A stretch of 63,255 bases of DNA, filler included, from Stramenopiles sp. TOSAG23-2 (lineage: Eukaryota), in NCBI GenBank assembly GCA_900128395.1. It is 3 parts of 3 records of this genome, joined end to end, with 100 filler letters (N's around TTAATTAATTAA, not from the genome) between each part and the next. Parts side by side here need not be neighbours in the genome. Positions count along the whole stretch, not along the records: positions 30,868 to 61,537 come from LT649380.1; 2 more parts are not named here. One strand, written 5' to 3'. Shown here piece by piece: positions 26,201 through 61,637 of the stretch (positions are counted from its first letter, which is position 1; each line of letters opens with the position of its first letter). The notes below the pieces were generated by a model. The model was not told the origin of the DNA, did not search any database, and saw only the letters and a list, made by a program, of their open reading frames with translations. The position numbers were made by a program, and so were the translations under genes.

Positions 26201-28591
26201 TTTGTTACCCATCACCGACCACTGCCCATCAATCCATGGAGGACATTTTTCCAGCATTTTAAGTACACTACAACTAAAATATACAGTAGAAAAAGGACCG
26301 TTGTCTAGTGGAGATGAGATGTCTGGTCGTATACACCATCCATATGGACCAAAAGTCATTTCCATGGTACCATTTTCTTGATAGAATTTTGCAATGCCCC
26401 GACGAGTATGCCCCAACAACGACGTTGGTTTGTTAGGTGTTATATCAAAACTTACGGAATGCTTATCATTCGTAGCTTCTTTGTTTGCATCATGATTGCA
26501 ACTTAATTTACCATATACAACATTATTTACAACAACATCTCTGCCATGAATTGCTAACTTATTGACATTATACTCAGATCCACCGATGCTACTTATATAA
26601 GTCCAATTTCCTTCAAACCAACCTGGACATGATGCAGTTAGTAGTGGTGTGTTACATCTATACACAGTGCTTGTGAAAGGATGTGGTGCACCACTTGATA
26701 AAGTAATATCAAAAGTTGAAAATTCAGGTCTTCCACAAAATCCTGCCGGCGCCTCAACAACATGTATAGTCCCCTTTTCGTCCATTTTTTTAACAATAAA
26801 TCGCTTTACCCAATTTTCAAAATGAGTTGGCGAAAGACCTTCGATATCTAACATCAGCTCGTACGAATTTGTGGCCATAGAACATTTCATAGAACCATGA
26901 ATGTATTCTGTAGATTTTATGGTACCTAAATTTCTAGAATCGGTTACATTAAATCCCAGCACAACACTTTTCAAACTGTCACTGCCACTTGTATTGTTCA
27001 ATGAAATTCTAGGCCCAGCTAACCAATCTGGACATGGAATGGATAACAAAGACATTGAGCAAAAAAATTCATATGTATCAAACCCATTAGGGGTTGAAGT
27101 ACCAATTGCCACTGGCTTAGCACATTTTCCAGGCAGACTAACTGTAATTTTAAATGATACGTATGTTCGACTAAATTTAAATTTAGTATGACTACTCCAA
27201 TTCGTTACCGTGCTCGGTGATTGAAAAACGATATCTAGGTATGACTCTGGCCAATTTGCCATAGCTGTGTCACCAGGTATAGAATACGATTCAAGCTGTT
27301 GATCACATCTAATGCTTCCACTATACATAATACCATTTTTATCAATAAATTCTACTGCGTTTCTAGTGGAGTTAAAATAAACATCTACATCATTATTAGT
27401 CGTATGATCATTACTATTCAATAAATGACCACGCCAATTACCGTGAAGAAAAGTATTACATAAATTTTCTTCATTTGGCACTGTGCAATGTAGGCTCGTT
27501 CTTCTATAGGGAACCCGTTCATCAGTTTCAAAATTATATATGGAGGGGGTTGAAACATTATGTGGCCGTTGGCACCAATTGAATGGCGCACCAACATGTT
27601 CAAGGAGACTTGGATACTGCGTTACACGAAAGACACCCCTTAATTTATGTGCTGGATCAGTTTCCGTAAAATCAATTCTCCATTGTCCATAATCCCCTTC
27701 GCTCTGCGTTGACATTTGTTGGCATGTGACACTATATTGAAATTCAACTCCATTTGAAGTCGATAAAGATATTGTATTTCCATTATCCGCTATAGTCAAA
27801 ATCCAATTATCTAAATAAACGCCTGTCTCATGTATACTTGCCATAGATCCATTCCATGACCCGTGTAACCAATGAGGGCAGATATCGCTTAAAGCGGTTG
27901 AAGTACAACCTAAAGAGTCGTAATAATATTTTCCAGACGGGACATTCTCTTTACCATCGTCATACGAAGTAAGTTTCAATGTAGAAAAACTTGGGTATCT
28001 TGTATCTTGCTGACCATCTACATAGCAACTAGCTTGCCAACCATATGTAATTAAAACATCGATCGACGAGGACGTTCGACTACTTATACTTTCCGCAGCG
28101 ATTGTAGGTAATGTTTGTAAATTAGTCCTACCTAAACGTATGACACCACGTATAAATGGATATGTTTCAGACATCCAAGTCGGGGAATCAGGCATTACAT
28201 CCCATTCTATAGCCACGTTTAAATCATCTGAAGACTCTTCTTGCGATAGAATATCCCATTCTCTACCAACATTTAAAGCAGTAGTAGCCTTGCTAAGGTT
28301 TAAACCACAGCGCATTGTCCCACTAAACGGTTGAGTCAATATAACGGCTGATACATGATCTCCCACAACTGTTAATTCCCAGTTTTTAGCACTTTTCCAT
28401 TGACCTTGCAACCAAGGCGGACATAGCCTTGGTGCAGCACATGTTCCTTCGCATATGGGGTCGCATAATTCGTTGTTTGTGACTGGATCACAATCACAAT
28501 GTGAAGTTTGCCATGATTGGGAAAAAGGTATGCAAATTACTAGTATGGTCGTCAATAGTAAAATTAATACTAGTTCGAAATATTTTATCAT
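14237..28591 (-). CDS. Giant (4784 aa) polycystin-1/REJ-like receptor: signal peptide, 7 N-terminal repeats, FN3, Calx-beta-like repeats, REJ, EGF-like, GAIN/GPS, multi-TM region with IQ motifs and a tetraspanin-like module
   Basis: Uninterrupted 14.3-kb ORF. GPS: CSYWD...W...G...CQSTHLSQFA. REJ motifs: LDASRS, FVWSC, NKPPSSG, WADDIEDLPFTY. IQ motifs: VQAMWRG, IQSLVRR. CCG loop: IQNDGECCGF. Confidence 0.85.
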   Translation of the reverse strand: MIKYFELVLILLLTTILVICIPFSQSWQTSHCDCDPVTNNELCDPICEGTCAAPRLCPPWLQGQWKSAKNWELTVVGDHVSAVILTQPFSGTMRCGLNLSKATTALNVGREWDILSQEESSDDLNVAIEWDVMPDSPTWMSETYPFIRGVIRLGRTNLQTLPTIAAESISSRTSSSIDVLITYGWQASCYVDGQQDTRYPSFSTLKLTSYDDGKENVPSGKYYYDSLGCTSTALSDICPHWLHGSWNGSMASIHETGVYLDNWILTIADNGNTISLSTSNGVEFQYSVTCQQMSTQSEGDYGQWRIDFTETDPAHKLRGVFRVTQYPSLLEHVGAPFNWCQRPHNVSTPSIYNFETDERVPYRRTSLHCTVPNEENLCNTFLHGNWRGHLLNSNDHTTNNDVDVYFNSTRNAVEFIDKNGIMYSGSIRCDQQLESYSIPGDTAMANWPESYLDIVFQSPSTVTNWSSHTKFKFSRTYVSFKITVSLPGKCAKPVAIGTSTPNGFDTYEFFCSMSLLSIPCPDWLAGPRISLNNTSGSDSLKSVVLGFNVTDSRNLGTIKSTEYIHGSMKCSMATNSYELMLDIEGLSPTHFENWVKRFIVKKMDEKGTIHVVEAPAGFCGRPEFSTFDITLSSGAPHPFTSTVYRCNTPLLTASCPGWFEGNWTYISSIGGSEYNVNKLAIHGRDVVVNNVVYGKLSCNHDANKEATNDKHSVSFDITPNKPTSLLGHTRRGIAKFYQENGTMEMTFGPYGWCIRPDISSPLDNGPFSTVYFSCSVLKMLEKCPPWIDGQWSVMGNKYLPLINTFSNIENSYTMIVNGTRSSINNISGHNDRIESIFCRASSFNEINYIGTTISVDIKYNVGIDAIERGLIFLDDTDPRSEIKMDFSPYNWCQRPRYSSGKEKKDSLDTTRQANGTCATPLTTENCPIWLQGHWKFFNNNADGTTTSTKWVIEENLLYNKLTNTTTAVAEITCKSISIQDFTIRLDIAYYFPSSWNGRIFRTLAKRMDRNKISVLIPPIGWCSPPPKTMRLDPENPYQYDEGYLVEVPSSPKSLVVTTVQENLDTSVAVSRSSLTNIFRLSDSDNFSPILYYLIEYDVKAPQQAICFNNYNITANKVLGSCCMFNKECMSNLCDQQTFSCTLRCTSNSQCAEATGKQNATCRKVDWLKTSIHYPKYACDTSRNAIDDSSPAKLCADVCYNTSIVDEDPTQAIGNCIFADNATCHHPSCKGGLIGKFTNGVVKYLQSSPCCADVVRDYCAQQNTLNIACHLENVRLSLGLTGYKKISTSSLVDGKSIVAIANLSAGMKYYFGMYALNEIGYSRPTFSMPSFEVPRALPPPPAALTVKQVEPDEGNNVTLELAKESLDVEFIAPSFDNGNSIVSYLLEYDRRIQFDSGSTGSQAKYLCNENYNPSISGETSYGKCSSNCDGTIGSCSVLDQCPLSSEGGGNDVCAACNNVTNDEVGSRYHDSDITCASLKEVERDLLDVSGSCRTEIETIRNYISDPFGDIPVISCTSPCMKNMTYVFANVERLNCERSGDVRYISTALDRSATSFLCDRDEGGQSCTNILSSYKSSLQSMSLNCQSLQDFPCCSDSIGKFFQNISASLARTSKKIVTLTTGPSFLQQTVEKEIHFSQASMAIEYYVFLQSSCPLYHDNRNCLNLAYTHEPRNSTETLTSSCVAAVRTYCKCQNPFDMGCSRYDFSKDLDYVPDGSIVIAADGDSFNYRISSLEKRTAYRVRVSSVNDVGRGITRMSIALPALMIPSKPIYNHVMLHTTSTREAYSTSLIIQFEPSFEDRQWTDSFDIEFGHVSLKNVIEYVNCEQAHNASLSCVTIESTLATYSQRADANATYMYERILYNLIPGKEYFFRVYTVIANRRGRSRLSDPLSIIPPIQTPNAPIDLYVTHINGSSLFVSWKVPDFDGGSKIRKYRVEYRQVSPFNCSSINNCSCELNYSNDRCGEIVYNFTKVEHAVDSTTTHIVEITRLKMGVFYNVNITACNAIGCGLTSSHNPVKTMQPPEIPTRVEQAIHNYSTLSILYSPPVSNGGDAISSYFIAWAEIFTDIKYRKLNSTNETNSTNSTMNTLEIAKRYQFLNGVHEIVTPTLFKNYEETTARKYYENCSCLETTKNNVSYGGCCCDNSDCQSNVCHPGLGYCTALCSTVADCHMDPIVQSVSENMCSSDMFCEVRCPFDTLNKLSPCSIMLQKNVSSPPCVIEDFSYSWIRSKKIGYHNSTIPRQSCIQYILTYCSIIAPNDPACKWDSILNIGKQIPKCKQRKPRSEFVGIRANSLITSLEPNHRYFLRISACNSAGCGLNVSIGIPIAPMPQILLSESKQCVVEGKENDTYSVVLNSRPSSPIALYIDGVADELENMRRKIIFDKSNWSVPVDINVLALNDDYDDVETLTSNLVHSIKTQDVVYDLYQDYIPKRNITIEIKDNDYSGVLIWNTSVITSEVGLKGSYEVQLRSRPLHDVAFTMNSGEDIFIHPETIIFRNSIFDYRVNHTVNVTARPDDYDDPLVSTSIITHTSSTDDSNYYNIHIPDVSVTVIDEDTAGVVLTPNIFYGVDEGGRVTYDIKLTAQPRTPVLILISLNPASDGMLAKTPSQYIGNESSLSFSTSVIVRPNGDIAVLPAALLFDVGKENWMDPKTFTLNIDDDDTDLGVTYNTLIQHVAISDDATYNCEPCSDLITPVFNVSINDNDVAGILLSRKNLVVTEDGTRADIFFVELESAPRSIVVIQIKSLKNQVVVSPSQITFTSFNYMIQQKVNVSAFDDGILETQVHFDKLVYEITTDDKLFQKIVLEATNLRIIDASAVVDTSPPPSVLSMVQADNINEIHVTFDRPAYVELIGIEHSEDCNEFFSTRTAKLFGTGAFCYWHSRTQLRVREGTPLEKHVVPGSKLALLGGVVRSTLTSVIFSEGTYVLQPRLPPPEMTYAYYGDTGTELFVNFTGYCYGGFHDVAGATLCTNVFANSDKLGGAASCSWISPCLLRISLGFGSSIQPAFGLNRCGTCECQSCLPTPAYVNYYGYATKCSTSEYACTDEFCYCSVSSDISKEVLCPEGRSLRLIPDAVKPIRHSILSASGCIKIDVPPNVVEPTASIIALPHASICNDLTIDGTNSITSGGGRDDVTWSVASIYTAQGSAGSDYRTYFTESLNNISNAASSVQALRLSIPRDVLVVGFNGGIREIAVALTIENILGEHSSKSLKIAMSDSDNFYPIILMNDTTKIRRSEQFIVNGAVLPTCGTDSIIDVKFNWYITKNAANGKVNVVDTSTIDRFDGSKVIKIPAFFFESNMKYTIELQINKEGYSQSAFRTIIVLLSSIHVDVGALQRQQSVYNTFSLDASRSISDDISPDQYGSFGNKLKFVWSCSRRSGHGCAISYGINTYASEDGSALNFPAFTFTDVSEPYLFSVNVEFLGNSAMKTVAVQFVEIKGPSVDIKSPIMNKINTDKRFVLNGILEDGKVGGKNYVLHWEETSGYLNEQKEIQSVYGSPLDRISLVILPNSFLPGRSYSFRLSATNTEGTNYAEVSIRTNKPPSSGYIETYPEIATSSTTQFVTYTNSWADDIEDLPFTYLFSFIDVDNNDTIIPISTGPSFSTEIKHLLPYLKGVKLYKMVVTVTDNLGASFSTSKRKDGSTMIVKVISANAWDHSWYIGMRESDQYLSMLDELNHNDLSFKVISLAETLSSNKACDDDIQKCNNQTERHYVNSTCSEGFQRNMDHNSNYGKYSKLRLSPCQCKAAWTGKYCHLKKNEVDRRVKVRKDLMTVLTSRFEDLLVTEAVIQQQVLCINSIMDTPSEIDLSIVDDGISHLHNLFAPREFISVIDAAPIVVKTLQTIVTSAKLPGRNADILSNKSHSGYLGDRSHVAGLILNLTASVSRALLNHHVSGEFHLTLKSDDITMWAKREAFGGSYNINLDRNLGSVEAASINIDTSTYAMSLNKIDICAAALNLHYRNSVGNAIVSIEIFDGDKVDSGAVEWKELQVPVTLSIPVSPLFNGTVKDEKALCSYWDNKEKAWVVDGIFTEGKSAAGNTYICQSTHLSQFALMSRIIPSTPTFKKYVGDIKIGLYTYDTFNWDTTIVMIVYSGLLVLTCVAAIYITRKSYKMTSHRDLKSFLLFGSTKVAQRRPLVYLYNRTPVNFCKRVKHGFKTNHLLFACINDLIMRRALSILSLMTFTGAAFLIMCLSAYTIGTIETKTIDPGVSYTNLDPHVPIINTTIAAVIAIYVLMSVKNHISTTRSNFGRVINVSSGSATFVWEIVFKMIRYLLFGSSKVHRRLATSYDLIQGLSLYKAGPSSAKRWRNFEVLHIRALKYATRKDVAKRRLKSGDANNPLHGTTHSYERYVVDAIMHGSTPLSREIYNCATTVQAMWRGYSVRLRRRIFEAHYYNILKAQETINEKFFLPAFPQNIKTVILLLQSLLTSISFALLVYSLYSYQYIFLTPYASASLILGFFVANGASFGIYLLKFTSGKILFIFPSVMLLLLVVLASYNMEIVNVKALSKSNWDDIRTIWIDAAKNDGTSDDLAKIQNDGECCGFGDKLDYPVEECKYNNSTVLYRGDGCYSYIISDLVDHTELMGSISYVMITIQAISLFLSLFLMRYLPTNLEEDDYVTKGEKDKVNLLKELLFLENNGKVVASSIQLTKTVYDGAACTIQSLVRRYLGKTRQVRYLEIAHIKRNTSIDLLPVFGYMFLLIVLHAYCSFLMFTYGIKFDFDREILWSKTYLWTSFFIFFIIQPLIIILSEMLMKDWIPHMFYYIMKWGEMLRIQNMLEEDIIREGKSA

Positions 28592-29203
28592 TTTTATACA
28601 ATGTAAAAATATAGAAAAATAATTTTATTTACAAAAATTTTAGATTGATATTTTATTAGCTGATATCCATTGCAAAATGTAAAAATATAGAAAAATAATT
28701 TTATTTACAAAAATTTTAGATTGATATTTTATTAGCTGATATCCATTGCAAGAATATGTTGCTTATTATATAACGTATATACTATATTAATGGGTAAAAA
28801 GCTGAAGGTTTTTATATGTATCAATTGTTTCAAAATATGTCTCTATATATTATTTATTGTATATTATTGTTTATGCAAGTTAATTAATTAATATACTAGT
28901 ATTATTATAGGTATCAATCATGTATGTATTATTAGAAAAAGCTGTGTTCTACTCTTTACAATAAATTAAAATTAATAAAAAATCAATAGTAATACGTTTT
29001 ATTTTATTTTTAGTCATGCGGCCTGGCTGGCACGCCGACATCACAGGCATTATAGTTTCATTAATATCATCCATAGAAATTTGCTAAAATTTTAAATTTA
29101 AAAGAACGTACGATTCTTCGTACCATTAATATCTTTTTTATGCACATCATATTCAATATATTTTATATAATATAATATTTGAACAGATCTCTCTTGTTTT
29201 TTT

Positions 29204-30767: not shown

Positions 30768-30867
30768 NNNNNNNNNNNNNNNNNNNNNNNNNNNNNNNNN
30801 NNNNNNNNNNNTTAATTAATTAANNNNNNNNNNNNNNNNNNNNNNNNNNNNNNNNNNNNNNNNNNNN
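30768..30867. other. Artificial contig linker N44-TTAATTAATTAA-N44
   Basis: Symmetric 100-nt spacer whose 12-mer gives stops in all six frames; identical to the one at 61538. Confidence 0.97.
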
Positions 30868-40073: not shown

Positions 40074-40781
40074 TCAACTCTTGATTTCTTTTTCATTTGA
40101 TATAATGTTCCAGGTGTATCTTGTCGATTTGGCATTTGCGAATTCTACAAAACGCTTGAAACATGCACTATCTCCATCCTGGCTACTCCAGTCTAAAGTA
40201 ATCGTTGAAATTGTCATCAGTCTTTGTGTCAATGTAAACTCTCTATATGTTTCATGAGATACTACTTTATTTTTCTTCCAACCTTCTAGTAACTCCCTAA
40301 CATCCTTGTATGTTTGTATCTTCTTGCAACTTTCTATGGTTAACTTTTCCATATACTCTTTCACTGATAAATTATGGTTGTAAGCTGTTGCACTGATAAT
40401 GGCTAATGCTACAAGCAATATGGATTTCAAATTTTCCCTCCTTGCTGATGCTCCAATTCATCATGATTCTTGTTAGTTTGTTCTAAACATTTTCTTAACT
40501 CTGTTACAGACATGGTTTTTAATGACTCATAATTCATGCTGTAGCAGGGCCTAAAAAGCTGTAACACAGATAACTTTCCATGCCTCCATCTTCTCATCAG
40601 CTGATAAAATATGGGCCCTGATTTGGCACCTGATTTCTTCATCTTCACCATCTTCTTCTTTTTTGTGATGGTTGATGGTGTTCCAGGTGTTCTAGTTGTT
40701 TTTCTTTTCTTTTTTTGAGGTAATCCCCCTCTTAATACAACTTTATTACTTCTTCTTCCTTCCATTTTCCTTTTACTCATA
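40074..40781 (-). pseudogene. Two overlapping frame-shifted ORFs of unknown family; possible degraded gene or inserted element
   Basis: The upstream ORF ends at TGA 40427 while an ORF in the -1 frame continues to 40074. No CG dinucleotide between 40205 and 40847. Confidence 0.35.
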
Positions 40782-40844
40782 TAGGTGGATTTAAATATGC
40801 ACTTGTCAGGATAATGCCAGGACAGCAAAAAGAAAAAGAAAGGT

Positions 40845-40917
40845 TGTCGAACCTCGGACTCGAACCGAGAATCTTCCGATTAGGAGTCGGACGCGGTAAC
40901 CATTTCGCCAGACCGAC
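40845..40917 (-). tRNA. tRNA-Arg (anticodon CCT), 73 nt, intronless
   Basis: GTCGGTCTGGCGAAATGGTTACCGCGTCCGACTCCTAATCGGAAGATTCTCGGTTCGAGTCCGAGGTTCGACA folds as a cloverleaf with A box TGGCGAAATGG, B box GGTTCGAGTCC, anticodon stem TCCGA/TCGGA and one U-U acceptor mismatch. T-runs (Pol III terminator) follow downstream. Confidence 0.95.
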
Positions 40918-41233
40918 AAATCTGTAAATTTGTACAAAGCATACCATTAAAGTACACTTGACGTTTTATAGGGTTACATATTATAGTAAATGTTGATTTT
41001 TATGTATTTATACTAATATTCAATTTACTATGGAAATAGCATTAAACAGCAACATAGCATAGCTCGTTGAAGCCAAAAAAAGATATTATATAATATTGGA
41101 GGAAGATATACATACTGGCATACATGTTTACACCATCCACGTGGACCAAAAGATAGATAACCATTTTCATGACAATCACAATCCATCAAAACAAAAACAA
41201 AAGAGTGTGTGTAAAATTCATTTATATAAAAGA

Positions 41234-42103
41234 ATGGTTACCACTACAACTACCATTAAAACCATGTCGAAAACATGGTTAATGATATGTTGCATCATTA
41301 CCATGTCAACCATAATAAATACGGAAGCACAATTATCAAGTAATATTATTCAATTAAATTCTAAAAATTGGAAAGATTTAGAAAAATCCCCTCATACTTG
41401 GTTCGTCAATTTTTGTCGCCAAGGATGAGGTTATTGTCAAATGTTAAATCCAGAGTGGGAAAAACTCGCTGCAAAAACGAAAAATGTTGTAAAAGTTGCA
41501 TATTGGGATACTACTTCATCAGGTCCAACTCCTCGTATTGTTGGTCAAATTCAAGGAACACCCACAATTAAAATATTTACACCGGTAATGAAGAAGAATA
41601 AAAAAAATCGTAAAAAGGTAGTGTTGGACTATCAATATGAAAGAAAAGCAAAGCCATTGATTAATTTTGCTTATAGTAAGATGAATTCTTTTGTTGAAAT
41701 CATAACATCGCCACAGAAATTTGATAAGTACATTGAAAAAAGTGAAAAGTTTGGCTTACCCCAAGCATTATTATTTACCAAAGGTACATCAACAAAACCA
41801 TTGTTAAAATATATGTCTGCTGAATTTCGACGTAGATTATTAATTGGTGAAGTTAGGATGACGAAAACAAATAAAGAAATACTTGCGAAATATAATGTTG
41901 ATGCTAGTGCTGGTACAACTTTATTACTTGTAAAAAATGGTGAAGGGGAAGAAAATATAATTTATAATAAAGGAAAATTTACATTTAATAAAGTAAGAAA
42001 TTTCTTACAAAAACATGCATTAAAAGAAGCAGTCACAGGTCCTGTGAAAAAAGTGAAAAAAGAAACAACTGAAGAAAATACGGAAACAAAAAAAGAATTG
42101 TAA
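41234..42103 (+). CDS. ER protein-disulfide-isomerase-like selenoprotein, 289 aa, Sec at TGA 41426-41428 (UGYC)
   Basis: Track ORFs 41096-41428 and 41441-42103 are in the same frame. Read-through gives WFVNFCRQG-U-GYCQMLNPEWEKLA, the thioredoxin active-site helix, then cis-Pro motif IQGTPTIK. Signal peptide, C-terminal KKEL and a downstream SECIS-like hairpin. Confidence 0.9.
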
Positions 42104-42408
42104 AAAAAAAAGAAAATGAAAGAAAGTATTTATTATACATATATGTATATATATAAAGTATATATAGTATACATTTGCATATGCAGGTCTATAAAATTGT
42201 ATGTGGCGTTTAATAACATGATATATATATATATAGGAAAAGATATATTTAGAATATGTATATGGATTTAACATTTGACAATAATATAATTAATATAATT
42301 AAAAACATATGATAAATAATGAAAAATCATCTTTTTCAATCAATAAACGCATGCAACACACATACAGAAAATCAGTATATGGATTTGCATATATATTGTG
42401 CATACTTT

Positions 42409-42478
42409 TTCTTGTGAATGATATAATCTCCTGTTGAAATACAAATATAAAAATAACAGGAAATATTGAGAACAAGAA
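42409..42478 (+). promoter_or_regulatory. Putative eukaryotic SECIS element (3' UTR of the PDI-like selenoprotein)
   Basis: Helix I TTCTTGT/ACAAGAA. Core ATGAT (42418) with TGAG (42467). Helix II ATAATCTCCTGTTG/TAACAGGAAATAT. Unpaired AAA at 42437-42439. Confidence 0.8.
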
Positions 42479-42731
42479 TAATTAAAAAACTTTTAAAAAT
42501 ATAACAGACAAAATATATAATATGCTTTTTTTTATAAAAAATACCAAAATAATTTTATTGTTTTTTTGAAATTTTTTTATACAAATACACCTCTTCTTCT
42601 TCGTATACTCTCTGTGGTATAATCATCTTTCTAATAGAAGAAGACATAAAAATAAAAATATGCATATATGTAAAATAAGAAAGCAATATATATAAATTTC
42701 AAATACAATCAAAATAAAATATACATTCACA

Positions 42732-43616
42732 ATGAAAGCAACTATCAATTATTACTTTCCATATGAAATTGATGACAATGGAACAGCGTTAAATGGCACA
42801 TTAGTAGGATATAATACAACAATACATGATGCTAGAACTATAAACACATTCTCATCACAACGTCCGCATTTAAATACCTTTGGATTTGATTTAGTTAAGT
42901 GTAAACCAATATCTGAATTTAAGTCTATTGAATCTTGTGTAAAAAATAAAAAAGATATTTATCAATACATCGTTCGTACTTTAAAAGAAATGACTGGTGC
43001 TATAGACGTTATTCCAGGTGCGATGATTACAAGAATATCAACTGTAAAAAAGAATTTGCGAAATTTAATGAATGTTCACAACGATGCACATTGTGATTTC
43101 GCACCTGGCACGGAACAAAAACAACAACTCATCGACTATTTAAATAATAAACGAAAAATTCAAGCATTTGACGACTATACAGGAAAACACTACAATGTAA
43201 ATAAATTAAATGATATGGACATAAAATGTATTAATTGGTGGCATCCAATAAAACCAGTTGAATCAAATCCATTATGTGTAATTGATAGGCGATCATTGAA
43301 TTTAAATGAAATATTTTCTATTGACTTTCCTGAGTACAACGAAGAAATATTATCAAAAAATACAAAGTTTTGCAGTTCGAAACATAATGATCAACATAAA
43401 TGGTATTATTACAGTAATATGAATCCTAATGAAAATTTATTATTTGTAACATATTCATCAGAAGATAATTGGAAACCAAATTTACATTCATCATTTGATT
43501 TAAATACAAATAATCTTCAAAATAATAATAATAAACGAATAACATCTTCATCACCACGTGAAAGTTTCGAAGTACGTTGTATATGTTTGTTTGATAAAAA
43601 GGTTAGTCGTTTGTGA
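42732..43616 (+). CDS. CmcJ/NvfI/AsaB-family (Fe/2-oxoglutarate-type) oxidoreductase with PTS1
   Basis: IHDAR, FGFDLV, AHCDF (HxD), INWWHPI..VESNPLCVID, HKWYYYSNM.P.E.L.F, HSSF, PRESFEVR; C-terminal SRL. Confidence 0.8.
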   Translation: MKATINYYFPYEIDDNGTALNGTLVGYNTTIHDARTINTFSSQRPHLNTFGFDLVKCKPISEFKSIESCVKNKKDIYQYIVRTLKEMTGAIDVIPGAMITRISTVKKNLRNLMNVHNDAHCDFAPGTEQKQQLIDYLNNKRKIQAFDDYTGKHYNVNKLNDMDIKCINWWHPIKPVESNPLCVIDRRSLNLNEIFSIDFPEYNEEILSKNTKFCSSKHNDQHKWYYYSNMNPNENLLFVTYSSEDNWKPNLHSSFDLNTNNLQNNNNKRITSSSPRESFEVRCICLFDKKVSRL

Positions 43617-45494: not shown

Positions 45495-46461
45495 GGTGTT
45501 TATATATATATATGTTTTTTGTTTGGTTCTTATATAATTGTAATATTATAATTGTTTTTTAATTATTTTTAATATATCTGCAGTTTTTGTTTTTAATAAT
45601 AATAATATTGATCGTGTGTATAGTATATTTAATACTAACTTGAATTATTTAGATATTTTTTAATATATATATAGTTGTATATCGTATCTTTTCTTAATTC
45701 ATAAGACTGACAAAGGTTGCAAAGTAGGTTGTTGTGTCGATTTTTCTCAGGCCTATTCACCTGCTATAATTATATAAATATCTATTTTTTTTTGCGCAAT
45801 TGTCCATCAAGCAGTATAAAAGCGTACTGTATACAGCATCATTGTAATCATGATGCATTGTGACATTTGGTTTCATTCATTTTAATCAAAAGAGATCCCA
45901 GAGATTTGCAACACATTTGCAACTTTTAGATTTAGATTCTCTATATTCTCCCTGGCTGGAATCTCTGTCTCTCCGTTTATCCTTAAACTTTATATCTTTA
46001 AACACTTAACATTAACATGATAATGAGATTAAGATAATACTTCTAAATTTTGTCGTAGTAGAACAATAAAGAATGATTCCCTATCACACATGATGCTATA
46101 TAATGATAATGCTAAAACCTTACTAATTCTAATAGTCGTCTAATATTAGTCCTTTCTTCGCAATTACTTTTTTGTCTAACCACAGCTTAAGCTCTTGCCA
46201 CACTAACACTCGCCTGAACACCCTTAAATAACATCAAAAAATCAAAAAAATATTTTTTATTATAAGTATGTAATATTTATATCTCCCATCATCACAGACG
46301 ACACATAGACGACACGCAAGCACGCACAAAATAAAATTGGTGAATTTCTACATAGATGCAAACCTACCTCTTCTACGTAGAGTAGTCGGCTCCCTATTTT
46401 TTTAGCATACACAAATAGATTTTCTGTTGAGGTTATATATATATATATAAATACGTACCTT

Positions 46462-48231
46462 ATGTCAAATCAACAAACAAACGCATTTATTACTGGCGCC
46501 ATTGCAGCATTTGGAACAACAGCTGTTGCATTTTATATCCTCAATAAATATAATAATAATAATAATAATAATAAATCAAAACCAACACGTCCACCACCAC
46601 CTATACGTAAAAATATCACTGGATGTGTTGGCAATACGCCAATGGTGAAACTCAATCCATCTCATCTTGGTATCACAGATTGCCTTGCAAATATTTATGC
46701 AAAACTAGAATTTCAAAATCCTGGTGGATCAGTTAAAGATAGGATTGCTGTTTCCATGATTGATGAAGCAGAACGTTCTGGTCTTATCACACCAGGAAAG
46801 ACGACGTTAGTAGAAGCAACTTCTGGTAATACGGGTATTGCAATTGCAATGGTAGGAGCAGCACGTGGATATAAAGTAGTAGTAGCGATGCCTCGTCTAC
46901 AAGCAATGTTGGAGAGGTATATACTCATTCGAAGTTTTGGTGGTCAAGTCTTGCTGTCTGAACCGGAAACGAAATCACAAGGATTTTTAGACTTGGCGGA
47001 ATCATATGCAAAAAAACATCCAAATTGTTACTTGATGCGACAATTTACCAATGATGCTAATCCAGATGCTCATTATAAAGCTACAGGTCCAGAAATATGG
47101 GAACAAATGGAACAGCGTGTCGATGCCGTTGTCATGGGTGCTGGAACTGGTGGTACGGCAGTTGGTGTTGGTCGATATATGAAAGAACAAAATTCAAATA
47201 TTAAAATATGCGTTGTAGAACCAACAGAATCACGTGTCATGCAAGGCTCTGTCCATCGAGTACATTCAATTGTTGGTATTGGCACAGGTTTACATGTTCC
47301 TATGCTTGAAGGTTTGGACCCAGGTGCAGATTTCATACCAGGAAAAGGGCGTGGTATTGTTGATGAATTTTTATCGACAGATACACCGGATTCTTTGGAT
47401 TGTTCATTATTATTGGCAACATCACATGGTCTTTTAGTAGGTCCATCCACAGGTGCTGCTGTACATGCTGCTCTAGAGCTGGGACGTCGTGAAGATATGC
47501 GTGGTAAAAATATTGTTGTTATTGCGCCATCGTCTGGTGTTAGGTATTTACAACATCCAATGTTCAAATCGTTAAGAAGGGAAGCATTTAGTGCTCTATC
47601 CGTATCTGTAGAATCTTCAGCTGTAATCACAAAAACCGTTGGATCTCCAGAGACATCTTCTTTCAATTCACTGAATAAAACTGATGTAGTCAATCGTGTT
47701 GAAGGTTGCATTCTTGCATTGGTACGACAATTAATGGATTTACCTAATATTGGTTTAAATGATAATTTAATTGATCATGGAGCAACAAGTATGACAGCAA
47801 TGCTGCTTTTAGGAAAATTACGTAGTTCACTTGAAGGTATGTTAGAAGGCAAAGAGCTGCATGGTTTGAAACTTGCAATTGTAAAAGAACGTTTGTGGGG
47901 CACGACACGAGATCTTGCTCGTGGTGTAGTAGGTGTTGATGAAGATTGTAATCTTCTCCCATTTTCTTCATTTTTGGAGGCAAATATTTTAATTGAATAT
48001 TGTGGTGGATGAGATCCAGCGTTCGAGGCACATTTTAAAATGTTACGTTCACTGCTTGAACAGCAGTTTCCACGTATCGTTATAAAAGGTGTTGCGGACG
48101 CTGAAAACACTGGAAATTTCATTGTACAAGATCAAAAAGATATGGAACTTTTGTCACCATATGGATTTCTTTCAACCACTGAACGCCAAAGTAAACTTTT
48201 GAAAAGAATTTATGAAAAGTATGAAAAGTAA
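46462..48231 (+). CDS. cysK: Selenoprotein fusion, 589 aa: N-terminal anchor, PLP cysteine synthase (CysK-like), phosphopantetheine carrier domain, SelW/Rdx domain (CGGU; Sec at TGA 48010-48012)
   Basis: NPGGSVKDR (PLP Lys92), EATSGNTG, GAGTGGT, GPSTGA. Carrier-like DNLIDHGATSMTAM (Ser443). ORF 48040-48231 is in frame: IEYCGG-U-DPAFEAHFKMLRSLLEQQFP...TGNFIV...GFLST, which has the SelW/Rdx pattern. SECIS-like hairpin about 120 nt after the TAA. Confidence 0.9.
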
Positions 48232-48352
48232 TTATTATATATATATTTATGCATATATGTATACATAATGATAAAATATGTAAAAAAAAAAGAAAAAGAT
48301 CACAAACAAATAAAAAAAGATGGGAATTGTATTTTAAATTTTCAATATTATA

Positions 48353-48423
48353 ATGATAGTCTCAATTACAAAAATAGTAATGCATTTTATCAAAAGATAA
48401 TAATGTGTGATTGGTGACTTGAG
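48353..48423 (+). promoter_or_regulatory. Putative type-2 SECIS element (3' UTR of the CysK-carrier-SelW fusion)
   Basis: Core ATGAT (48353) with TGAG (48420). 12-nt helix II AGTCTCAATTAC pairs with GTGATTGGTGACT (one bulge). AAAAA at 48370-48374. Apical mini-stem CATTTTATC-AAAA-GATAATAATG. Helix I is weak. Confidence 0.78.
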
Positions 48424-49184
48424 AAGCAATTTTGTATTTCAGAGATTTTGTATCTCTAGTAAAAATTTTGATTTTATATATATACACGCAATCCATCACG
48501 TCTATTTAATAGAATTATAATGTGTTATTATAAAGACACAAAACAAATTTTGGTACTGTAGAGTGTAAAAAAGAGTGTTTATATATATATATGTGGTTTT
48601 ATATCGTGTTTTTTTTTCTTCGAGTATTAATTTTACGTACGTTCGTACGTGCGTACTTGTATTTAAAATATTTATATTTATTATAATATTTTTTATTTTT
48701 TTATTTTTTATAAAAAAATATTATATTTTATTTTAAAAAAATGAATATTATTTTTTAATTTTTTTAATTACATGAAACAGAAGTGTTACAAACTCTCTTC
48801 TGGTTATCAGATGTACATGAAAATGAAAATAAATTTGTATAGCACTCGGACAATAATATATGTATTTAATAAAACGTAGGTTTGAATTCAATTTTCACCG
48901 TTTTGTCCTCATTGTGTTGTCTTTTTATTTTGTTTCTCGTTTCGTATCCGATAATGATCTGGAAATAAATTAATGAAACGACGTTGAGCACTCGTCATTT
49001 GTCAGATTATGTTGTTATTAATTATCTTGTTTCCCCGTCATTGTTTAAGAAGGTAATTGAACTTCTTTTCTTTTTGTTTTTCATGTTGTTTTGATTGATC
49101 ATCTTGATTTTCAGTGTTTGATCTGTTGCTGTTATTTTCTTGATCGTATTGAATACTAGAACAAAAAAGGAAGCAATTATTCAC

Positions 49185-50234
49185 TCATTTTTTTTCACTT
49201 GGGCGTTTCCAAGACAAATTGACTGGAGTGGATGTTTTGAAAGTGTCTACGAGCGGACAGTGTGCATCAACAGCTTCTTTCAATTTCTCTAGCTCTTCTT
49301 GTGAAGCGGAAGATTCGATTGTGATAGTACCGGTCATACTTTTTAACCCAACTGCATCGTCTGCTAATCCAACAAGTCCGCCAAGATCAATAGGTGCTTC
49401 TACTTTGCAAGATATAGACTGAATATCAACTCCCATGACTTGTCCATAATACTTGTAAGTAATTTCTTGGCACGTACCAAAACTTGCACAAAAAAGATCC
49501 AATGGATTTGTACCTTTATTTGTTCCCCCTGGCATTGTTGTCGGCTCATCAACAACAATGGTGTGTCCACCAGTAAGAGTGGCAGTGGTAAGAAGGCCAT
49601 CGCCATTCAAAACGGAGGAACTGCTGTATTTGCTTTGCAATGCTATATCGTCCTCTTTTGCTGCACCAATAAGTGCCATGACACCTTCCACCAAATTTTT
49701 CTGTGGGATCTCAGTGGAACCTGTTGGTTCAGCTTTGACAACTTTTGTTGTAAGATCAAGTGGGTTAACAAGTGTAGCAACAAGTGGGCAATGGGCATCG
49801 ACGGCACCTTTAAGCGCATCAAGCTGCTCATCTGATGCATCTGGGGCGTCAATGGTAATGTCGACATTGATCCCGCTGAAACCGACTTTTTCACCTACGC
49901 CAACAAAACCTGAAAGATTGATATCAGCATCAACAGAAGCTGAAACGGATTTCAAATCAATATCCATGACGGTAGCATATAACTTGTATGTGATTTCTTG
50001 GCAAGTACCTAATGAAGCGCACATAACATCCAATGGATTTGGTCCAGCGTTTGAACCTCCTGGGAATGCTTCTGGTTCATCAATTGTGAAATCAAAACCA
50101 CCTGGCAATGTAACTTTTGTTGATACACCATCTCCAGCTAATTTACTTTCAGAGCTGTATGTAAATGTAAGACAAGATTCATCTTCTTGGCGGGCACCAA
50201 TAAGTCCCATAATATCTTCTTTTTTCGTAGTCAT
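49185..50234 (-). CDS. osmC: Tandem (two-domain) OsmC/Ohr-family protein
   Basis: Two homologous halves, each with DEP...GG.N.G.NPLD..CAS.GTCQEITYK and AVDAHCPLV (both catalytic Cys present). Confidence 0.9.
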   Translation of the reverse strand: MTTKKEDIMGLIGARQEDESCLTFTYSSESKLAGDGVSTKVTLPGGFDFTIDEPEAFPGGSNAGPNPLDVMCASLGTCQEITYKLYATVMDIDLKSVSASVDADINLSGFVGVGEKVGFSGINVDITIDAPDASDEQLDALKGAVDAHCPLVATLVNPLDLTTKVVKAEPTGSTEIPQKNLVEGVMALIGAAKEDDIALQSKYSSSSVLNGDGLLTTATLTGGHTIVVDEPTTMPGGTNKGTNPLDLFCASFGTCQEITYKYYGQVMGVDIQSISCKVEAPIDLGGLVGLADDAVGLKSMTGTITIESSASQEELEKLKEAVDAHCPLVDTFKTSTPVNLSWKRPSEKK

Positions 50235-50949
50235 TGTTTTAAACTTTGTTTGTTTATTTTTCTTTTTGATTCAAATATTCTTAATATAGTTTGTCGTTTT
50301 ATCTTTAATAATATTGATATTTATATATATCTTGTATTTGTACATATATAGATATATATATGTTTATATTTAATAATGTGTGGATATCAAAGATAGCTGC
50401 TTATTTTGTCGTATCTTTTTCGAAACATTTCCCTGCTATTTGCCTGTTGTTAATCTGTATTTTCCGCGTTTTTAGTTTTTTTTGTGTTGTGCGTTGCTTT
50501 TGCATGTGGCGGACTGAACGAATATTCTATATATAAGGTTAAGGTATATAGTGCTATATACTATTTAGTTTTTTTATAAAGTACATATATATACTTACTA
50601 GTATAATACCATTTGCATTAAGCATTATCAGGTATCAGGTTTATTATAGGAGGTATTAGTATTACGGTATTACAGTCGTCTAGTCTAGCTGGCTAGACTG
50701 AAAAGTCTAGGACCTAGGACCTACCACCTACCACCAGGTGGTAGATCTGGTAGATGATGATTAAGTCTAGACTCCTCGTAGAGAGGATCCGACTACGTAG
50801 ACACTACTACCACCTGGTGGTATTAATACAAGCTAAAGCACTGGCAAGCTGCTATATTGACACTCACACATCACATTATATTATTTTAATAATATATATT
50901 ATATAAACACACATAAATATAAAATATTGTGTTTTAAAATGTACGCAAT

Positions 50950-61537: not shown

Positions 61538-61637
61538 NNNNNNNNNNNNNNNNNNNNNNNNNNNNNNNNNNNNNNNNNNNNTTAATTAATTAANNNNNNN
61601 NNNNNNNNNNNNNNNNNNNNNNNNNNNNNNNNNNNNN
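61538..61637. other. Artificial contig linker N44-TTAATTAATTAA-N44
   Basis: Same 100-nt spacer as at 30768. Confidence 0.97.

What the first reader, a model, noticed from the sequence alone, without database searches (positions are those of the whole stretch)
41234..42478. Second cryptic selenoprotein: ER PDI-like protein with C-R-Q-G-U-G-Y-C active site
Seen: an in-frame TGA occupies the first Cys position of the thioredoxin CxxC, giving UGYC in place of CGHC, with an additional Cys four residues upstream. There is a signal peptide, a second non-catalytic thioredoxin-like domain, a KKEL C-terminus and a well-formed SECIS-like hairpin about 300 nt downstream. Established: Sec-containing PDI-like proteins occur in algae (e.g. 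Emiliania huxleyi EhSEP2). Inference: an ER-retained Sec oxidoreductase; the CxxxUxxC arrangement may define a distinct subfamily.
Basis: partly seen in the sequence, partly recalled or inferred. Interest (0 to 1): 0.75.

Follow-up and report, generated by a model that had tools for sequence, protein, structure and literature searches.

The report
Selenocysteine-containing ER disulfide isomerase gene
This gene most likely encodes an ER protein-folding enzyme whose catalytic cysteine is replaced by selenocysteine, a kind of protein already known from algae, so it is a sound annotation fix rather than a new principle.

Summary
A single uninterrupted frame (ATG 41234 to TAA 42101-42103, + strand, 289 codons) carries one in-frame TGA at 41426-41428. 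That codon aligns without gaps to the first Cys of the thioredoxin CxxC motif, giving C-R-Q-G-U-G-Y-C.

Selenocysteine is the best reading:
- Of 91 related protein clusters, 66 begin just after this codon.
- Two N-terminal fragments end exactly before it, one of them from another species.
- Four records show Trp there, as expected if TGA was read by code 4. Others show Cys.
- 12,345 codons of Pfam-supported frames in the window hold no TGA.
- A second gene in the window has TGA in a SelW/Rdx-like CxxU motif.

The predicted fold (pLDDT 87.6) has two thioredoxin-fold domains and is closest to yeast Mpd1p.

The hairpin at 42409-42478 has SECIS anatomy, and shares a 7+7-nt core with a hairpin behind the second TGA gene. 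It gets no Rfam SECIS match and departs from the classical spacing and 3' core consensus.

Sec-containing PDI-like proteins are known (EhSEP2 with UGHC; algal PDI_a to PDI_e, with PDI_e GUGUU). I file this as a new member of a known kind. The organism was not identified, and no orthologous DNA or Sec machinery could be examined.

The parts
41234..42103 (+). Coding sequence of the PDI-family selenoprotein candidate (289 codons plus TAA), with no intron needed.
   Evidence: Searches show a single frame, open except for TGA at codon 65. Homologues align along the whole length.
41234..41329 (+). Probable signal peptide, residues 1-32, with a possible alternative start at M11 (41264).
   Evidence: Hydrophobic core WLMICCIITMSTII seen in the sequence. 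Model confidence is low here (pLDDT 53-55). Full-length relatives have similar hydrophobic N-termini. The cleavage site is inferred by eye; no predictor was run.
41330..41650 (+). Catalytic thioredoxin-fold 'a' domain, about residues 33-139.
   Evidence: Pfam PF00085 matches residues 38-120 at E 2.2e-14. PDB sequence matches include PDIA6, TXNDC5 and Mpd1p a domains. Secondary structure is given.
41414..41416 (+). Cys61 codon (TGT), four residues before the Sec codon and a hallmark of the subfamily.
   Evidence: Among proteins spanning the site, Cys is present here in the close family. That covers P0005, P0006, P0008, P0045, P0046, P0080, P0100, P0115, P0123, P0151 and P0156. PDIA6-like hits have Y or F instead.
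41426..41428 (+). In-frame TGA, the proposed Sec65, at the N-terminal (nucleophilic) position of the CxxC motif.
   Evidence: Searches show the codon. It aligns to Cys in P0006, P0008 and P0045, and to W in P0005, P0041, P0046 and P0143. Fragments P0042 and P0043 end at codon 64.
41435..41437 (+). Cys68 codon (TGT), the resolving Cys of the U-G-Y-C motif.
41651..42028 (+). Second, non-catalytic thioredoxin-fold 'b' domain, about residues 140-265. This is the family-specific part.
   Evidence: The AlphaFold2 model has pLDDT 92-98 here. Foldseek's best hit is Mpd1p 3ed3, TM 0.66/0.71 over 243 columns. Pfam gives only a weak ERp29_N match (E 0.017).
42089..42103 (+). C-terminal K-K-E-L followed by the TAA stop, a probable ER-retrieval signal.
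   Evidence: An ...EL end is nearly invariant in the family: E288 is conserved in at least 90% of rows. Its function is inferred.
42409..42478 (+). SECIS-like hairpin with four parts. Helix I pairs 42409-42415 with 42472-42478 (7 bp). The core is A-UGA-U at 42418-42422 against U-GA-G at 42467-42470. Helix II is 3 bp, a 3x2 internal loop, then 8 bp. The apical loop starts with AAA at 42437-42439.
   Evidence: Folds are. The core is shared with 48352-48425. No Rfam SECIS match was found.

Best explanation
The gene encodes a secreted-pathway, ER-retained member of the protein disulfide isomerase family. It has one catalytic thioredoxin domain and one non-catalytic thioredoxin-fold domain, an a-b layout like yeast Mpd1p.

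The UGA at codon 65 is decoded as selenocysteine. The active site is therefore U-G-Y-C, and it cycles between a selenolate/thiol and a selenylsulfide with Cys68. Sec sits at the solvent-exposed nucleophilic position that attacks substrate disulfides.

Recoding is directed by a SECIS element in the 3' UTR, most likely the hairpin at 42409-42478.

What is shown:
- The frame, the motif alignment and the fold.
- Conservation of the stop codon and of both its flanks in other species.
- The existence of Cys homologues.

What is inferred:
- Actual Sec insertion.
- ER residence.
- The catalytic consequence of Sec.
- A role for the conserved Cys61, for example as a third redox partner near the selenylsulfide.
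- That this particular hairpin is the functional SECIS.
For: 1. Frame and motif. There is one in-frame TGA in a 289-codon frame. It aligns without gaps to the first Cys of CGHC or CGYC.

2. The stop is conserved in relatives.
- Of 91 cluster representatives with at least 35% identity over the C-terminal domain, 66 begin at query residues 70-106.
- 8 begin later, 5 have unrelated N-termini, and 12 span the site.
- Of 70 more distant hits, 63 span the site.

3. N-terminal fragments end exactly at codon 64. P0042 is 100% identical over residues 1-64 but differs upstream of the ATG. P0043 is 73% identical and ends ...FCRAG.

4. Trp at the site. P0005, P0041, P0046 and P0143 carry W at the catalytic position. 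This is what TGA gives under code 4 (inference).

5. Shifted-frame evidence. The N-terminus of P0108 is compatible at 52 of 66 positions with a shifted-frame reading of ...CRAG-U-GYCQQL.... The best of 500 shuffled peptides reached 30. This reading implies YGA at the site.

6. Cys forms exist. CR.GCGYC occurs in P0006, P0008 and P0045, and a clade of five has CGFC. These sit at two or more places in the family tree.

7. TGA is not a general sense codon. Fourteen Pfam-supported frames total 12,345 codons with 253 Cys and 152 Trp codons and no TGA. The tandem OsmC gene ends in TGA.

8. A second recoding candidate lies in the same window. TGA at 48010-48012 sits in ...IEYCGG-U-..., with a sub-threshold Pfam Rdx match (18.8 bits against a 22.6 cut-off).

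9. The hairpin.
- It has helix I, the AUGA/GA core, helix II and apical AAA.
- My descriptor gives 7 hits on both strands of the window, and this one has the longest helix I.
- 145 of 2000 dinucleotide shuffles of the 628-nt intergenic region give any hit, and 5 of 2000 give one as good.
- The motif pair AATGATA...TTGAGAA occurs only twice in the window, once behind each of the two TGA-containing genes. The expected count is 0.13. This pattern was chosen after seeing both sites.

10. Fold. pLDDT is 87.6 and pTM 0.80. The best PDB match is Mpd1p 3ed3 (E 3e-15, TM 0.66/0.71).
Against: - No Rfam SECIS family matches at E <= 10, either in 41000-43000 or in the 121-nt hairpin alone.
- The AUGA-to-AA spacing is 15 nt. 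The classical SECISearch pattern asks for 10-13 (PMC2375036, methods passage).
- The 3' core reads U-GA-G. The published consensus is KGAW (PMC3753652, introduction passage).
- My descriptor and the shared-core pattern were designed after seeing the candidate, so their statistics are optimistic.
- An AATAAA at 42342-42347 lies upstream of the hairpin. If it were used as a poly(A) signal, the mRNA would lack the hairpin.
- No Sec machinery gene and no tRNA-Sec lie in the window. The only tRNA found is tRNA-Arg.
- Only 1-2 other genes in the window end in TGA, so direct evidence that TGA terminates here is thin.
- No transcript, no orthologous DNA and no protein-level evidence could be examined.
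- K-K-E-L does not fit the classical [KRHQSA]-[DENQ]-E-L pattern. I recall this pattern from memory; it came from no call.
Confidence: 0.85

Rival explanations
1. The gene is a selenoprotein, but the hairpin at 42409-42478 is not its SECIS. It would be a chance hairpin or another K-turn RNA, and the real element would lie elsewhere in the 3' UTR or be of a divergent type.
For: - No Rfam SECIS hit.
- The 15-nt spacing and the UGAG core depart from the published consensus (PMC2375036 and PMC3753652, passages).
- 145 of 2000 shuffles satisfy the loose descriptor.
- An AATAAA lies upstream of the hairpin at 42342-42347.
- A second match to the pattern, resting on a (TA)n run, exists at 42218-42266.
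- In fungi, only 5 of 16 selenoprotein genes had a detectable SECIS (bioRxiv 10.1101/314781, passage), so divergent elements are a real possibility.
Against: - Only 5 of 2000 shuffles give a hit as good as this one.
- It is the only descriptor hit in the intergenic region.
- Its 7+7-nt core recurs only behind the other TGA-containing gene.
- The fold persists when the whole intergenic region is folded.
Confidence: 0.25
2. UGA at codon 65 is read through or reassigned to a standard amino acid (Trp or Cys), not Sec. This could be a variant genetic code or near-cognate suppression.
For: - Several database records show W at the site.
- Only 1-2 other genes in the window end in TGA, while 12 of 14 Pfam-supported frames end in TAA.
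- No Sec machinery is visible in the window.
Against: - 12,345 codons of Pfam-supported frames hold 253 Cys and 152 Trp codons and no TGA.
- The only two in-frame TGAs flanked by coding-like sequence sit at redox-Cys positions of thioredoxin-fold motifs.
- Trp at a catalytic Cys position would abolish activity.
- The tandem OsmC gene ends at TGA, with non-coding-looking sequence after it.
Confidence: 0.04
3. The TGA is a true stop. The locus would be a pseudogene, or carry a base-call error, or be two separate products: a 64-residue peptide and a 220-residue protein starting at Met70.
For: Gene callers split it this way. P0002 is 220 aa starting MLNPEW, and P0042 ends at ...FCRQG.
Against: - The same stop is seen in independent records and in another species (P0042, P0041, P0043).
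- It is implied in 66 of 91 family clusters, so it is neither an error nor a recent nonsense mutation.
- Both flanks are conserved.
- The thioredoxin fold needs strand 56-61 before the TGA and helix 66-81 after it. The model has pLDDT 94-97 across the junction.
- The downstream piece alone would lack both a signal peptide and an active site.
Confidence: 0.04
4. An intron removes the TGA from the mRNA.
For: GT dinucleotides lie upstream of the TGA at 41401, 41405 and 41415.
Against:
- Homologues align without gaps through FVNFCRQG-U-GYCQMLNPEW, so any intron would delete conserved active-site residues.
- The neighbouring genes are long uninterrupted frames, one of them 4795 codons.
Confidence: 0.02

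Closest known systems
EhSEP2, the PDI-like selenoprotein of Emiliania huxleyi (Obata & Shiraiwa 2005, as described in PMC6254913; passages read)
   Same: It has a single catalytic thioredoxin domain. Sec is at the first position of the CxxC motif (UGHC there, UGYC here). It is homologous to PDI, and Sec is encoded by UGA.
   Different: The motif differs: UGHC, presumably preceded by W as in PDI, against C-R-Q-G-U-G-Y-C here. The EhSEP2 sequence was not on hand, so direct homology, the b domain and the Cys at -4 could not be compared.
Algal PDI selenoprotein subfamilies PDI_a to PDI_e (Jiang et al. 2020, PMC7539508; section 7 and passages read). PDI_e has a G-U-G-U-U motif.
   Same: These are thioredoxin-fold, PDI-like proteins with Sec in the active-site motif. 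G-U-G-Y-C here is colinear with G-U-G-U-U of PDI_e. PDI_e is reported from haptophytes and SAR, and relatives of the window protein include MMETSP records.
   Different: There is only one TGA here, with Tyr and Cys at the other two positions. Which subfamily, if any, holds the C-x3-U-G-Y-C proteins is shown in Figure S3 of that paper, which I could not open. That paper states PDI_e occurs only in single-celled algae. The window's organism is unknown.
Yeast Mpd1p (PDB 3ed3) and the PDIA6/P5 a domains
   Same: Mpd1p is the best structural match (E 3e-15, TM 0.66/0.71 over 243 columns) and has the same a-b two-domain layout. The best sequence matches in the PDB are the TXNDC5 and PDIA6 a domains (E 8e-16 to 8e-12).
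   Different: These proteins use Cys, not Sec. Identity to Mpd1p is only 19%. In the tree, the family is separated from PDIA6-like proteins by a branch with 97% SH-aLRT support.
Eukaryotic SECIS elements (Rfam SECIS families; SECISearch pattern)
   Same: The hairpin lies in the 3' UTR. It has helix I, an internal loop, an A-UGA / GA core, helix II and unpaired AAA in the apical loop. The 29 nt between AA and GA fall within the 15-39 range (PMC2375036, methods passage).
   Different: There is no Rfam match at E <= 10. The spacing from the core to AA is 15 nt against 10-13. The 3' core is UGAG against KGAW (PMC3753652, passage).

Membership tests
Eukaryotic selenoprotein gene | In-frame UGA aligned with Cys (or Sec) in homologues | tested here: met
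   U65 aligns with Cys in P0006, P0008, P0045 and all PDIA6-like hits. It aligns with W in 4 records, which fits TGA read by code 4.
Eukaryotic selenoprotein gene | Sequence conservation on both sides of the UGA across species | tested here: met
   Upstream: P0043 matches 32 of 44 residues and ends at codon 64. Downstream: identities of 82%, 81% and 57% and lower in P0003, P0004, P0007 and others.
Eukaryotic selenoprotein gene | SECIS element in the 3' UTR | tested here: inconclusive
   A hairpin with SECIS anatomy lies at 42409-42478. It has no Rfam match and two departures from consensus (PMC2375036 and PMC3753652, passages).
Eukaryotic selenoprotein gene | Sec machinery in the genome (tRNA-Sec, SBP2, eEFSec, PSTK, SepSecS, SPS) | not testable with these tools
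   Only this 63-kb window is available. It holds one tRNA, tRNA-Arg, and no machinery gene among the Pfam-scanned frames.
Eukaryotic selenoprotein gene | Selenium in the protein (75Se labelling or mass spectrometry) | not testable with these tools
   This requires an experiment.
Protein disulfide isomerase family (thioredoxin superfamily) | Thioredoxin-fold domain with a CxxC-type active site at the start of helix 2 | tested here: met
   Pfam PF00085 scores 53.8 bits against a 23.5 cut-off. In the model, strand 56-61 is followed by U65 and helix 66-81. PDB matches include PDIA6, TXNDC5, PDIA3 and Mpd1p.
Protein disulfide isomerase family (thioredoxin superfamily) | Additional non-catalytic thioredoxin-fold (b-type) domain | tested here: met
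   The model covers residues 155-261 at pLDDT 92-98. Foldseek aligns both domains to Mpd1p 3ed3.
Protein disulfide isomerase family (thioredoxin superfamily) | ER targeting: signal peptide and a C-terminal KDEL-type signal | tested here: inconclusive
   There is a hydrophobic N-terminus and a conserved ...EL end in the family. No signal-peptide predictor was available, and KKEL is a non-classical variant.
PDI_e (Jiang et al. 2020) | Three neighbouring Sec residues forming a G-U-G-U-U motif | tested here: not met
   The window has G-U-G-Y-C with a single TGA. No held protein shows a G[WCU]G[WCU][WCU] pattern.
EhSEP2-type PDI selenoprotein | One thioredoxin domain with Sec at the first position of the CxxC motif (UGHC) | tested here: inconclusive
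   The position of Sec and the single catalytic domain agree (PMC6254913, passage). The motif residue differs (Y in place of H), and sequence homology to EhSEP2 itself was not tested because that sequence was not on hand.
Rfam SECIS families | Score at or above the family's gathering threshold | tested here: not met
   No SECIS family was listed even at E <= 10.

The most novel reading that the evidence does not exclude
The C-x3-U-G-Y-C proteins may be a separate, mostly Sec-containing and so far uncatalogued PDI subfamily, spread widely among microbial eukaryotes and not only algae. In this reading the conserved Cys at -4 acts as a third redox partner of the selenylsulfide. The lineage would also use a SECIS variant that current covariance models miss: a core of A-AUGA-UA against U-UGA-GAA, with a long helix II.
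Probability: 0.3. Interest if true: 0.55.

Novelty: new member of a known kind. Interest (0 to 1): 0.4.

Why it matters
- Annotation. Automatic gene callers split this gene at the UGA. Of 91 related clusters in public protein sets, 66 are N-terminally truncated and so lack both the signal peptide and the active site. Reading the UGA as Sec restores a complete ER oxidoreductase.
- Organism. Together with the second candidate in the window, it shows that this organism uses selenocysteine.
- Selenoprotein biology. It adds a Sec-dominant PDI clade with an extra conserved Cys. It also adds two SECIS-like elements that standard models miss, which could help widen SECIS models for AT-rich protist genomes.
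- Limits. It does not change the known picture that PDI-like selenoproteins exist.

Tried and rejected
- Rfam scans of 41000-43000, 48230-48700 and the hairpin alone found no SECIS family. They gave only weak chance-level matches such as SNORD70 (20 bits against a gathering score of 50). I considered a C/D-box snoRNA reading of the hairpin and set it aside. The internal region is a stable helix, and the boxes deviate from the C and D consensus as I recall it.
- My first descriptor script found nothing because unconstrained folding dropped the three A-U pairs next to the core. It was rewritten with the closing pair enforced.
- The descriptor does not pick up the second candidate at 48353, even with helix I relaxed to 3.5. 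Its helix I is poor and its fold is unremarkable (z -0.64).
- A scan of genome contigs for relatives found 19 pattern matches, none confirmed by tblastn. No orthologous DNA was obtained.
I did not resend it in another form.
- A literature search for the string UGYC gave 22 papers, none relevant. A search for phrases such as 'Sec-containing PDI' gave only PMC7539508. These searches cover main texts of the open library only.
- The tandem OsmC gene (50235-49185, - strand) was checked as a possible selenoprotein and rejected. It has ordinary Cys codons and its TGA is a normal stop.
- The organism could not be identified.
Full report
**1. The observation**

On the + strand a frame runs from ATG 41234 to TAA 42101-42103. 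It is interrupted by one TGA at 41426-41428. Read through, it gives a 289-residue protein.

- The N-terminus is hydrophobic: MSKTWLMICCIITMSTIINTEA.
- The active-site region reads ...TWFVNF-C-R-Q-G-U-G-Y-C-QMLNPEWEKL....
- The C-terminus is ...TKKEL.

Pfam places a thioredoxin domain at residues 38-120 (E 2.2e-14, 53.8 bits against a cut-off of 23.5). The TGA codon aligns, without gaps, to the first Cys of FYAPW-C-GHC-K.L.PEW in PDIA6-like proteins. It also aligns to the first Cys of CR.G-C-GYC in closer relatives. Cys61 lies four residues upstream, and Cys68 is the second Cys of the motif.

One detail is wrong. The GT at 41430-41431 lies after the TGA, so it could not serve as a donor that removes it.

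**2. Is the TGA translated?**

The comparative evidence is the strongest part of the case.

I gathered 210 related proteins. Of these, 91 have at least 35% identity to the window protein over the family-specific C-terminal domain (residues 125-265). They split as follows:

| Class | Count of 91 |
|---|---|
| Begin at query residues 70-106, i.e. at the first usable start after codon 65 | 66 |
| Begin later | 8 |
| Carry unrelated N-termini | 5 |
| Span the site | 12 |

Of 70 more distant, PDIA6-like hits with the C-terminal region aligned, 63 span the site. All of those have Cys there except two, which have Ala or Ser. The pile-up of truncated gene models is thus specific to this family.

Two N-terminal fragments end exactly at codon 64.
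- P0042 is identical over residues 1-64. It differs from the window upstream of the ATG by a 3-residue insertion and two substitutions in the read-through 5' leader, so it is an independent record.
- P0043 comes from a different species. It matches 32 of 44 residues and ends ...FVNFCRAG.

Four records have Trp at the catalytic position: P0005, P0041, P0046 and P0143. Trp makes no sense chemically at that position, but it is what a gene caller using code 4 would print for TGA. This is my inference, since the DNA was not seen.

One record, P0108, has an N-terminus that is a wrong-frame reading of the same region. It is compatible at 52 of 66 positions with ...ICRAG-U-GYCQQLSPEWEKLAK...GTPTIRLF.... 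Across 500 shuffled peptides the mean was 23.6 and the maximum 30. In that reading the codon at the site is TGA or CGA.

True Cys forms also exist. P0006, P0008 and P0045 have CR[QV]G-C-GYC, and a clade of five proteins has CGFC. In a quick maximum-likelihood tree of 54 rows chosen from the 210 held, the family (38 rows) lies on one side of a branch with 97% SH-aLRT support. PDIA6-like and FYREG-CGYC proteins (16 rows) lie on the other. Cys forms appear at two or more places among the truncated, Sec-implied forms.

This is the usual signature of a selenoprotein family: Sec in most members and Cys in some.

**3. Alternatives to Sec**

- Variant code. This is unlikely. Fourteen Pfam-supported frames in the window total 12,345 codons with 253 Cys and 152 Trp codons and no TGA. 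A scan for frames joined by TGA found only two cases with coding-like sequence on both sides that also sit in a recognisable motif. The tandem OsmC gene (50235-49185, - strand) ends in TGA, with non-coding-looking sequence after it. The caveat is that TAA is the usual stop here (12 of 14 frames), so direct examples of TGA as a stop are few.
- Pseudogene or base-call error. This is excluded by the same stop occurring in independent records and other species.
- Two separate products. This is implausible because the thioredoxin fold needs strand 56-61 before the TGA and helix 66-81 after it. The model is confident across the junction, with pLDDT 94-97.
- Intron. An intron would delete residues that align without gaps in all homologues.

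**4. A second recoding candidate in the window**

The frame 46381-48231 (+) encodes a pyridoxal-phosphate enzyme (PALP, E 3e-66). It continues through a TGA at 48010-48012 in the context ...ILIEYCGG-U-DPAFEAHF.... This gives a sub-threshold match to the Rdx (SelW/SelT/SelH) family covering the CxxU position (18.8 bits against a cut-off of 22.6, E 0.0019). This supports, but does not prove, that the organism uses Sec.

**5. The hairpin**

The hairpin at 42409-42478 folds, alone and within the whole intergenic region, into four parts:
- Helix I: a 7-bp helix, 42409-42415 paired with 42472-42478.
- Core: an internal loop with A-UGA-U at 42418-42422 opposite U-GA-G at 42467-42470.
- Helix II: 3 bp, a 3x2 internal loop, then 8 bp.
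- Apical loop: 17 nt, beginning with AAA at 42437-42439.

The free energy is -14.5 kcal/mol with z -2.9, and 3 of 200 shuffles fold as well.

I wrote a descriptor requiring ATGA, a closing pair, at least 8 helix II pairs, unpaired AA 10-16 nt from the core, GA, and helix I of at least 5 bp.
- It gives 7 hits on both strands of the window. This hit has the longest helix I.
- In 2000 dinucleotide shuffles of the 628-nt intergenic region, 145 gave any hit and 5 gave one as good.

The hairpin behind the second TGA gene has ATGA at 48353, AAAAA 13 nt later, and TGA at 48420. It shares the extended core AATGATA...TTGAGAA with the first hairpin. That pair of motifs occurs only at these two places in the window, on either strand, against 0.13 expected. 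Lineage-specific conservation of sequence around the SECIS core has been described for Dictyostelium (PMC2375036, passage).

Against the SECIS reading:
- No Rfam SECIS family matches at E <= 10.
- The 15-nt spacing exceeds the 10-13 nt of the SECISearch pattern (PMC2375036, methods passage).
- The 3' core UGAG departs from KGAW (PMC3753652, passage).
- My descriptor range and the shared-core pattern were both set after seeing the candidates.
- The second hairpin has a poor helix I and an unremarkable fold.
- An AATAAA at 42342-42347 precedes the hairpin.

I put the probability that this hairpin is the functional SECIS at about 0.65-0.75.

**6. What the protein is**

The AlphaFold2 model was built on a 40-row alignment and has mean pLDDT 87.6 and pTM 0.80. 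It shows two thioredoxin-fold domains.

Foldseek's best PDB match is yeast Mpd1p (3ed3; E 3e-15, TM 0.66/0.71, 243 columns, 19% identity). Mpd1p is an a-b member of the PDI family. Next come PDI, the OsPDIL2-3 a-b fragment, ERp44, ERp57 and ERdj5. By sequence, the nearest solved chains are the TXNDC5 and PDIA6 a domains, and the nearest named database proteins are PDIA6 homologues.

The family keeps a C-terminal ...EL ending, with variants such as KKEL, VKVEL, VKTEL, KEEL, KDEL and DDEL, and hydrophobic N-termini. The most likely function is an ER-resident thiol-disulfide oxidoreductase or isomerase. Its attacking residue would be a selenolate, resolved by Cys68.

Cys61 is conserved in both the Sec and the Cys forms of the clade, whereas PDIA6-like proteins have Tyr or Phe there. 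By position it lies at the end of the strand leading into the active site. A role as a third redox partner is speculation on my part.

**7. Comparison with what is known**

- EhSEP2 of Emiliania huxleyi is a PDI-like selenoprotein with one thioredoxin domain and a UGHC motif (PMC6254913, passages).
- PDI selenoproteins were reported in Ostreococcus (three) and Thalassiosira (two) (PMC2375036, passages).
- Jiang et al. 2020 divide algal PDI selenoproteins into PDI_a to PDI_d, with one Sec each, and PDI_e, with a G-U-G-U-U motif. PDI_e is found mainly in haptophytes and SAR, and they state it is restricted to single-celled algae (PMC7539508, section 7 read in full).

G-U-G-Y-C here is colinear with G-U-G-U-U but has a single TGA, so the defining feature of PDI_e is not met. 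Which of PDI_a to PDI_d, if any, holds this clade is shown in a supplementary figure that I could not open.

The preprint on fungal selenoproteins lists seven families. It contains no occurrence of 'PDI' and one of 'disulfide', the latter in a passage about thioredoxin reductase (10.1101/314781, term search and passages).

Searches of the open library for 'UGYC' and for phrases such as 'Sec-containing PDI' found nothing further.

I therefore file the gene as a new member of a known kind. It may belong to an already named subfamily.

**8. Limits**

The organism was not identified. It has an AT-rich genome of about 25-38% GC that is gene-dense and intron-poor. No orthologous DNA, transcripts or Sec machinery could be examined.

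Noticed in passing
window 46381-48231 (+), TGA at 48010-48012; hairpin 48352-48425: A second candidate selenoprotein. It is a PALP (cysteine-synthase-like) enzyme whose frame continues through a TGA in ...IEYCGG-U-DPAF.... This gives a sub-threshold Rdx/SelW-like match (18.8 bits against a 22.6 cut-off). About 120 nt after its TAA lies a type-2-like SECIS candidate sharing the AATGATA...TTGAGAA core. Its helix I is poor and its fold z-score is only -0.64.
   Followed up: partly
window 49185-50235 (-): A tandem two-domain OsmC-like protein with ordinary Cys codons that ends in TGA. It is one of very few genes in the window that use TGA as a stop.
   Followed up: partly
window 14237-28624 (-): A single uninterrupted 4795-codon frame combining fibronectin type III, REJ, IQ and a C-terminal tetraspanin domain. 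This is an unusual giant membrane protein.
   Followed up: no
proteins P0011 (an MMETSP/EukProt record) and P0108: In P0011 the 12 residues replacing the active site (VVKDEDTASFSP) are compatible at 12 of 12 positions with a shifted-frame reading of ...RQG-U-GYCQLLT..., while both flanks stay in frame. This may be a loss of the Sec site by compensating frameshifts, or an assembly artefact. The first 66 or so residues of P0108 are likewise a wrong-frame reading. No DNA was seen for either.
   Followed up: partly
window 42218-42266 (+): A second match to the loose NTGA..AA..GA pattern in the same 3' UTR. Its pairing comes from a (TA)n run, and I judge it a low-complexity artefact.
   Followed up: partly
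window 40842-40918 (-): A tRNA-Arg (anticodon CCT) lies about 300 nt upstream of the gene, inside the stop-to-stop frame 40427-40879. That frame is therefore probably not coding at its 5' end.
   Followed up: no
window 30768-30811, 30824-30867, 61538-61581, 61594-61637: Four runs of exactly 44 N, in two pairs separated by 12 bases. They look like masked stretches rather than assembly gaps.
   Followed up: no
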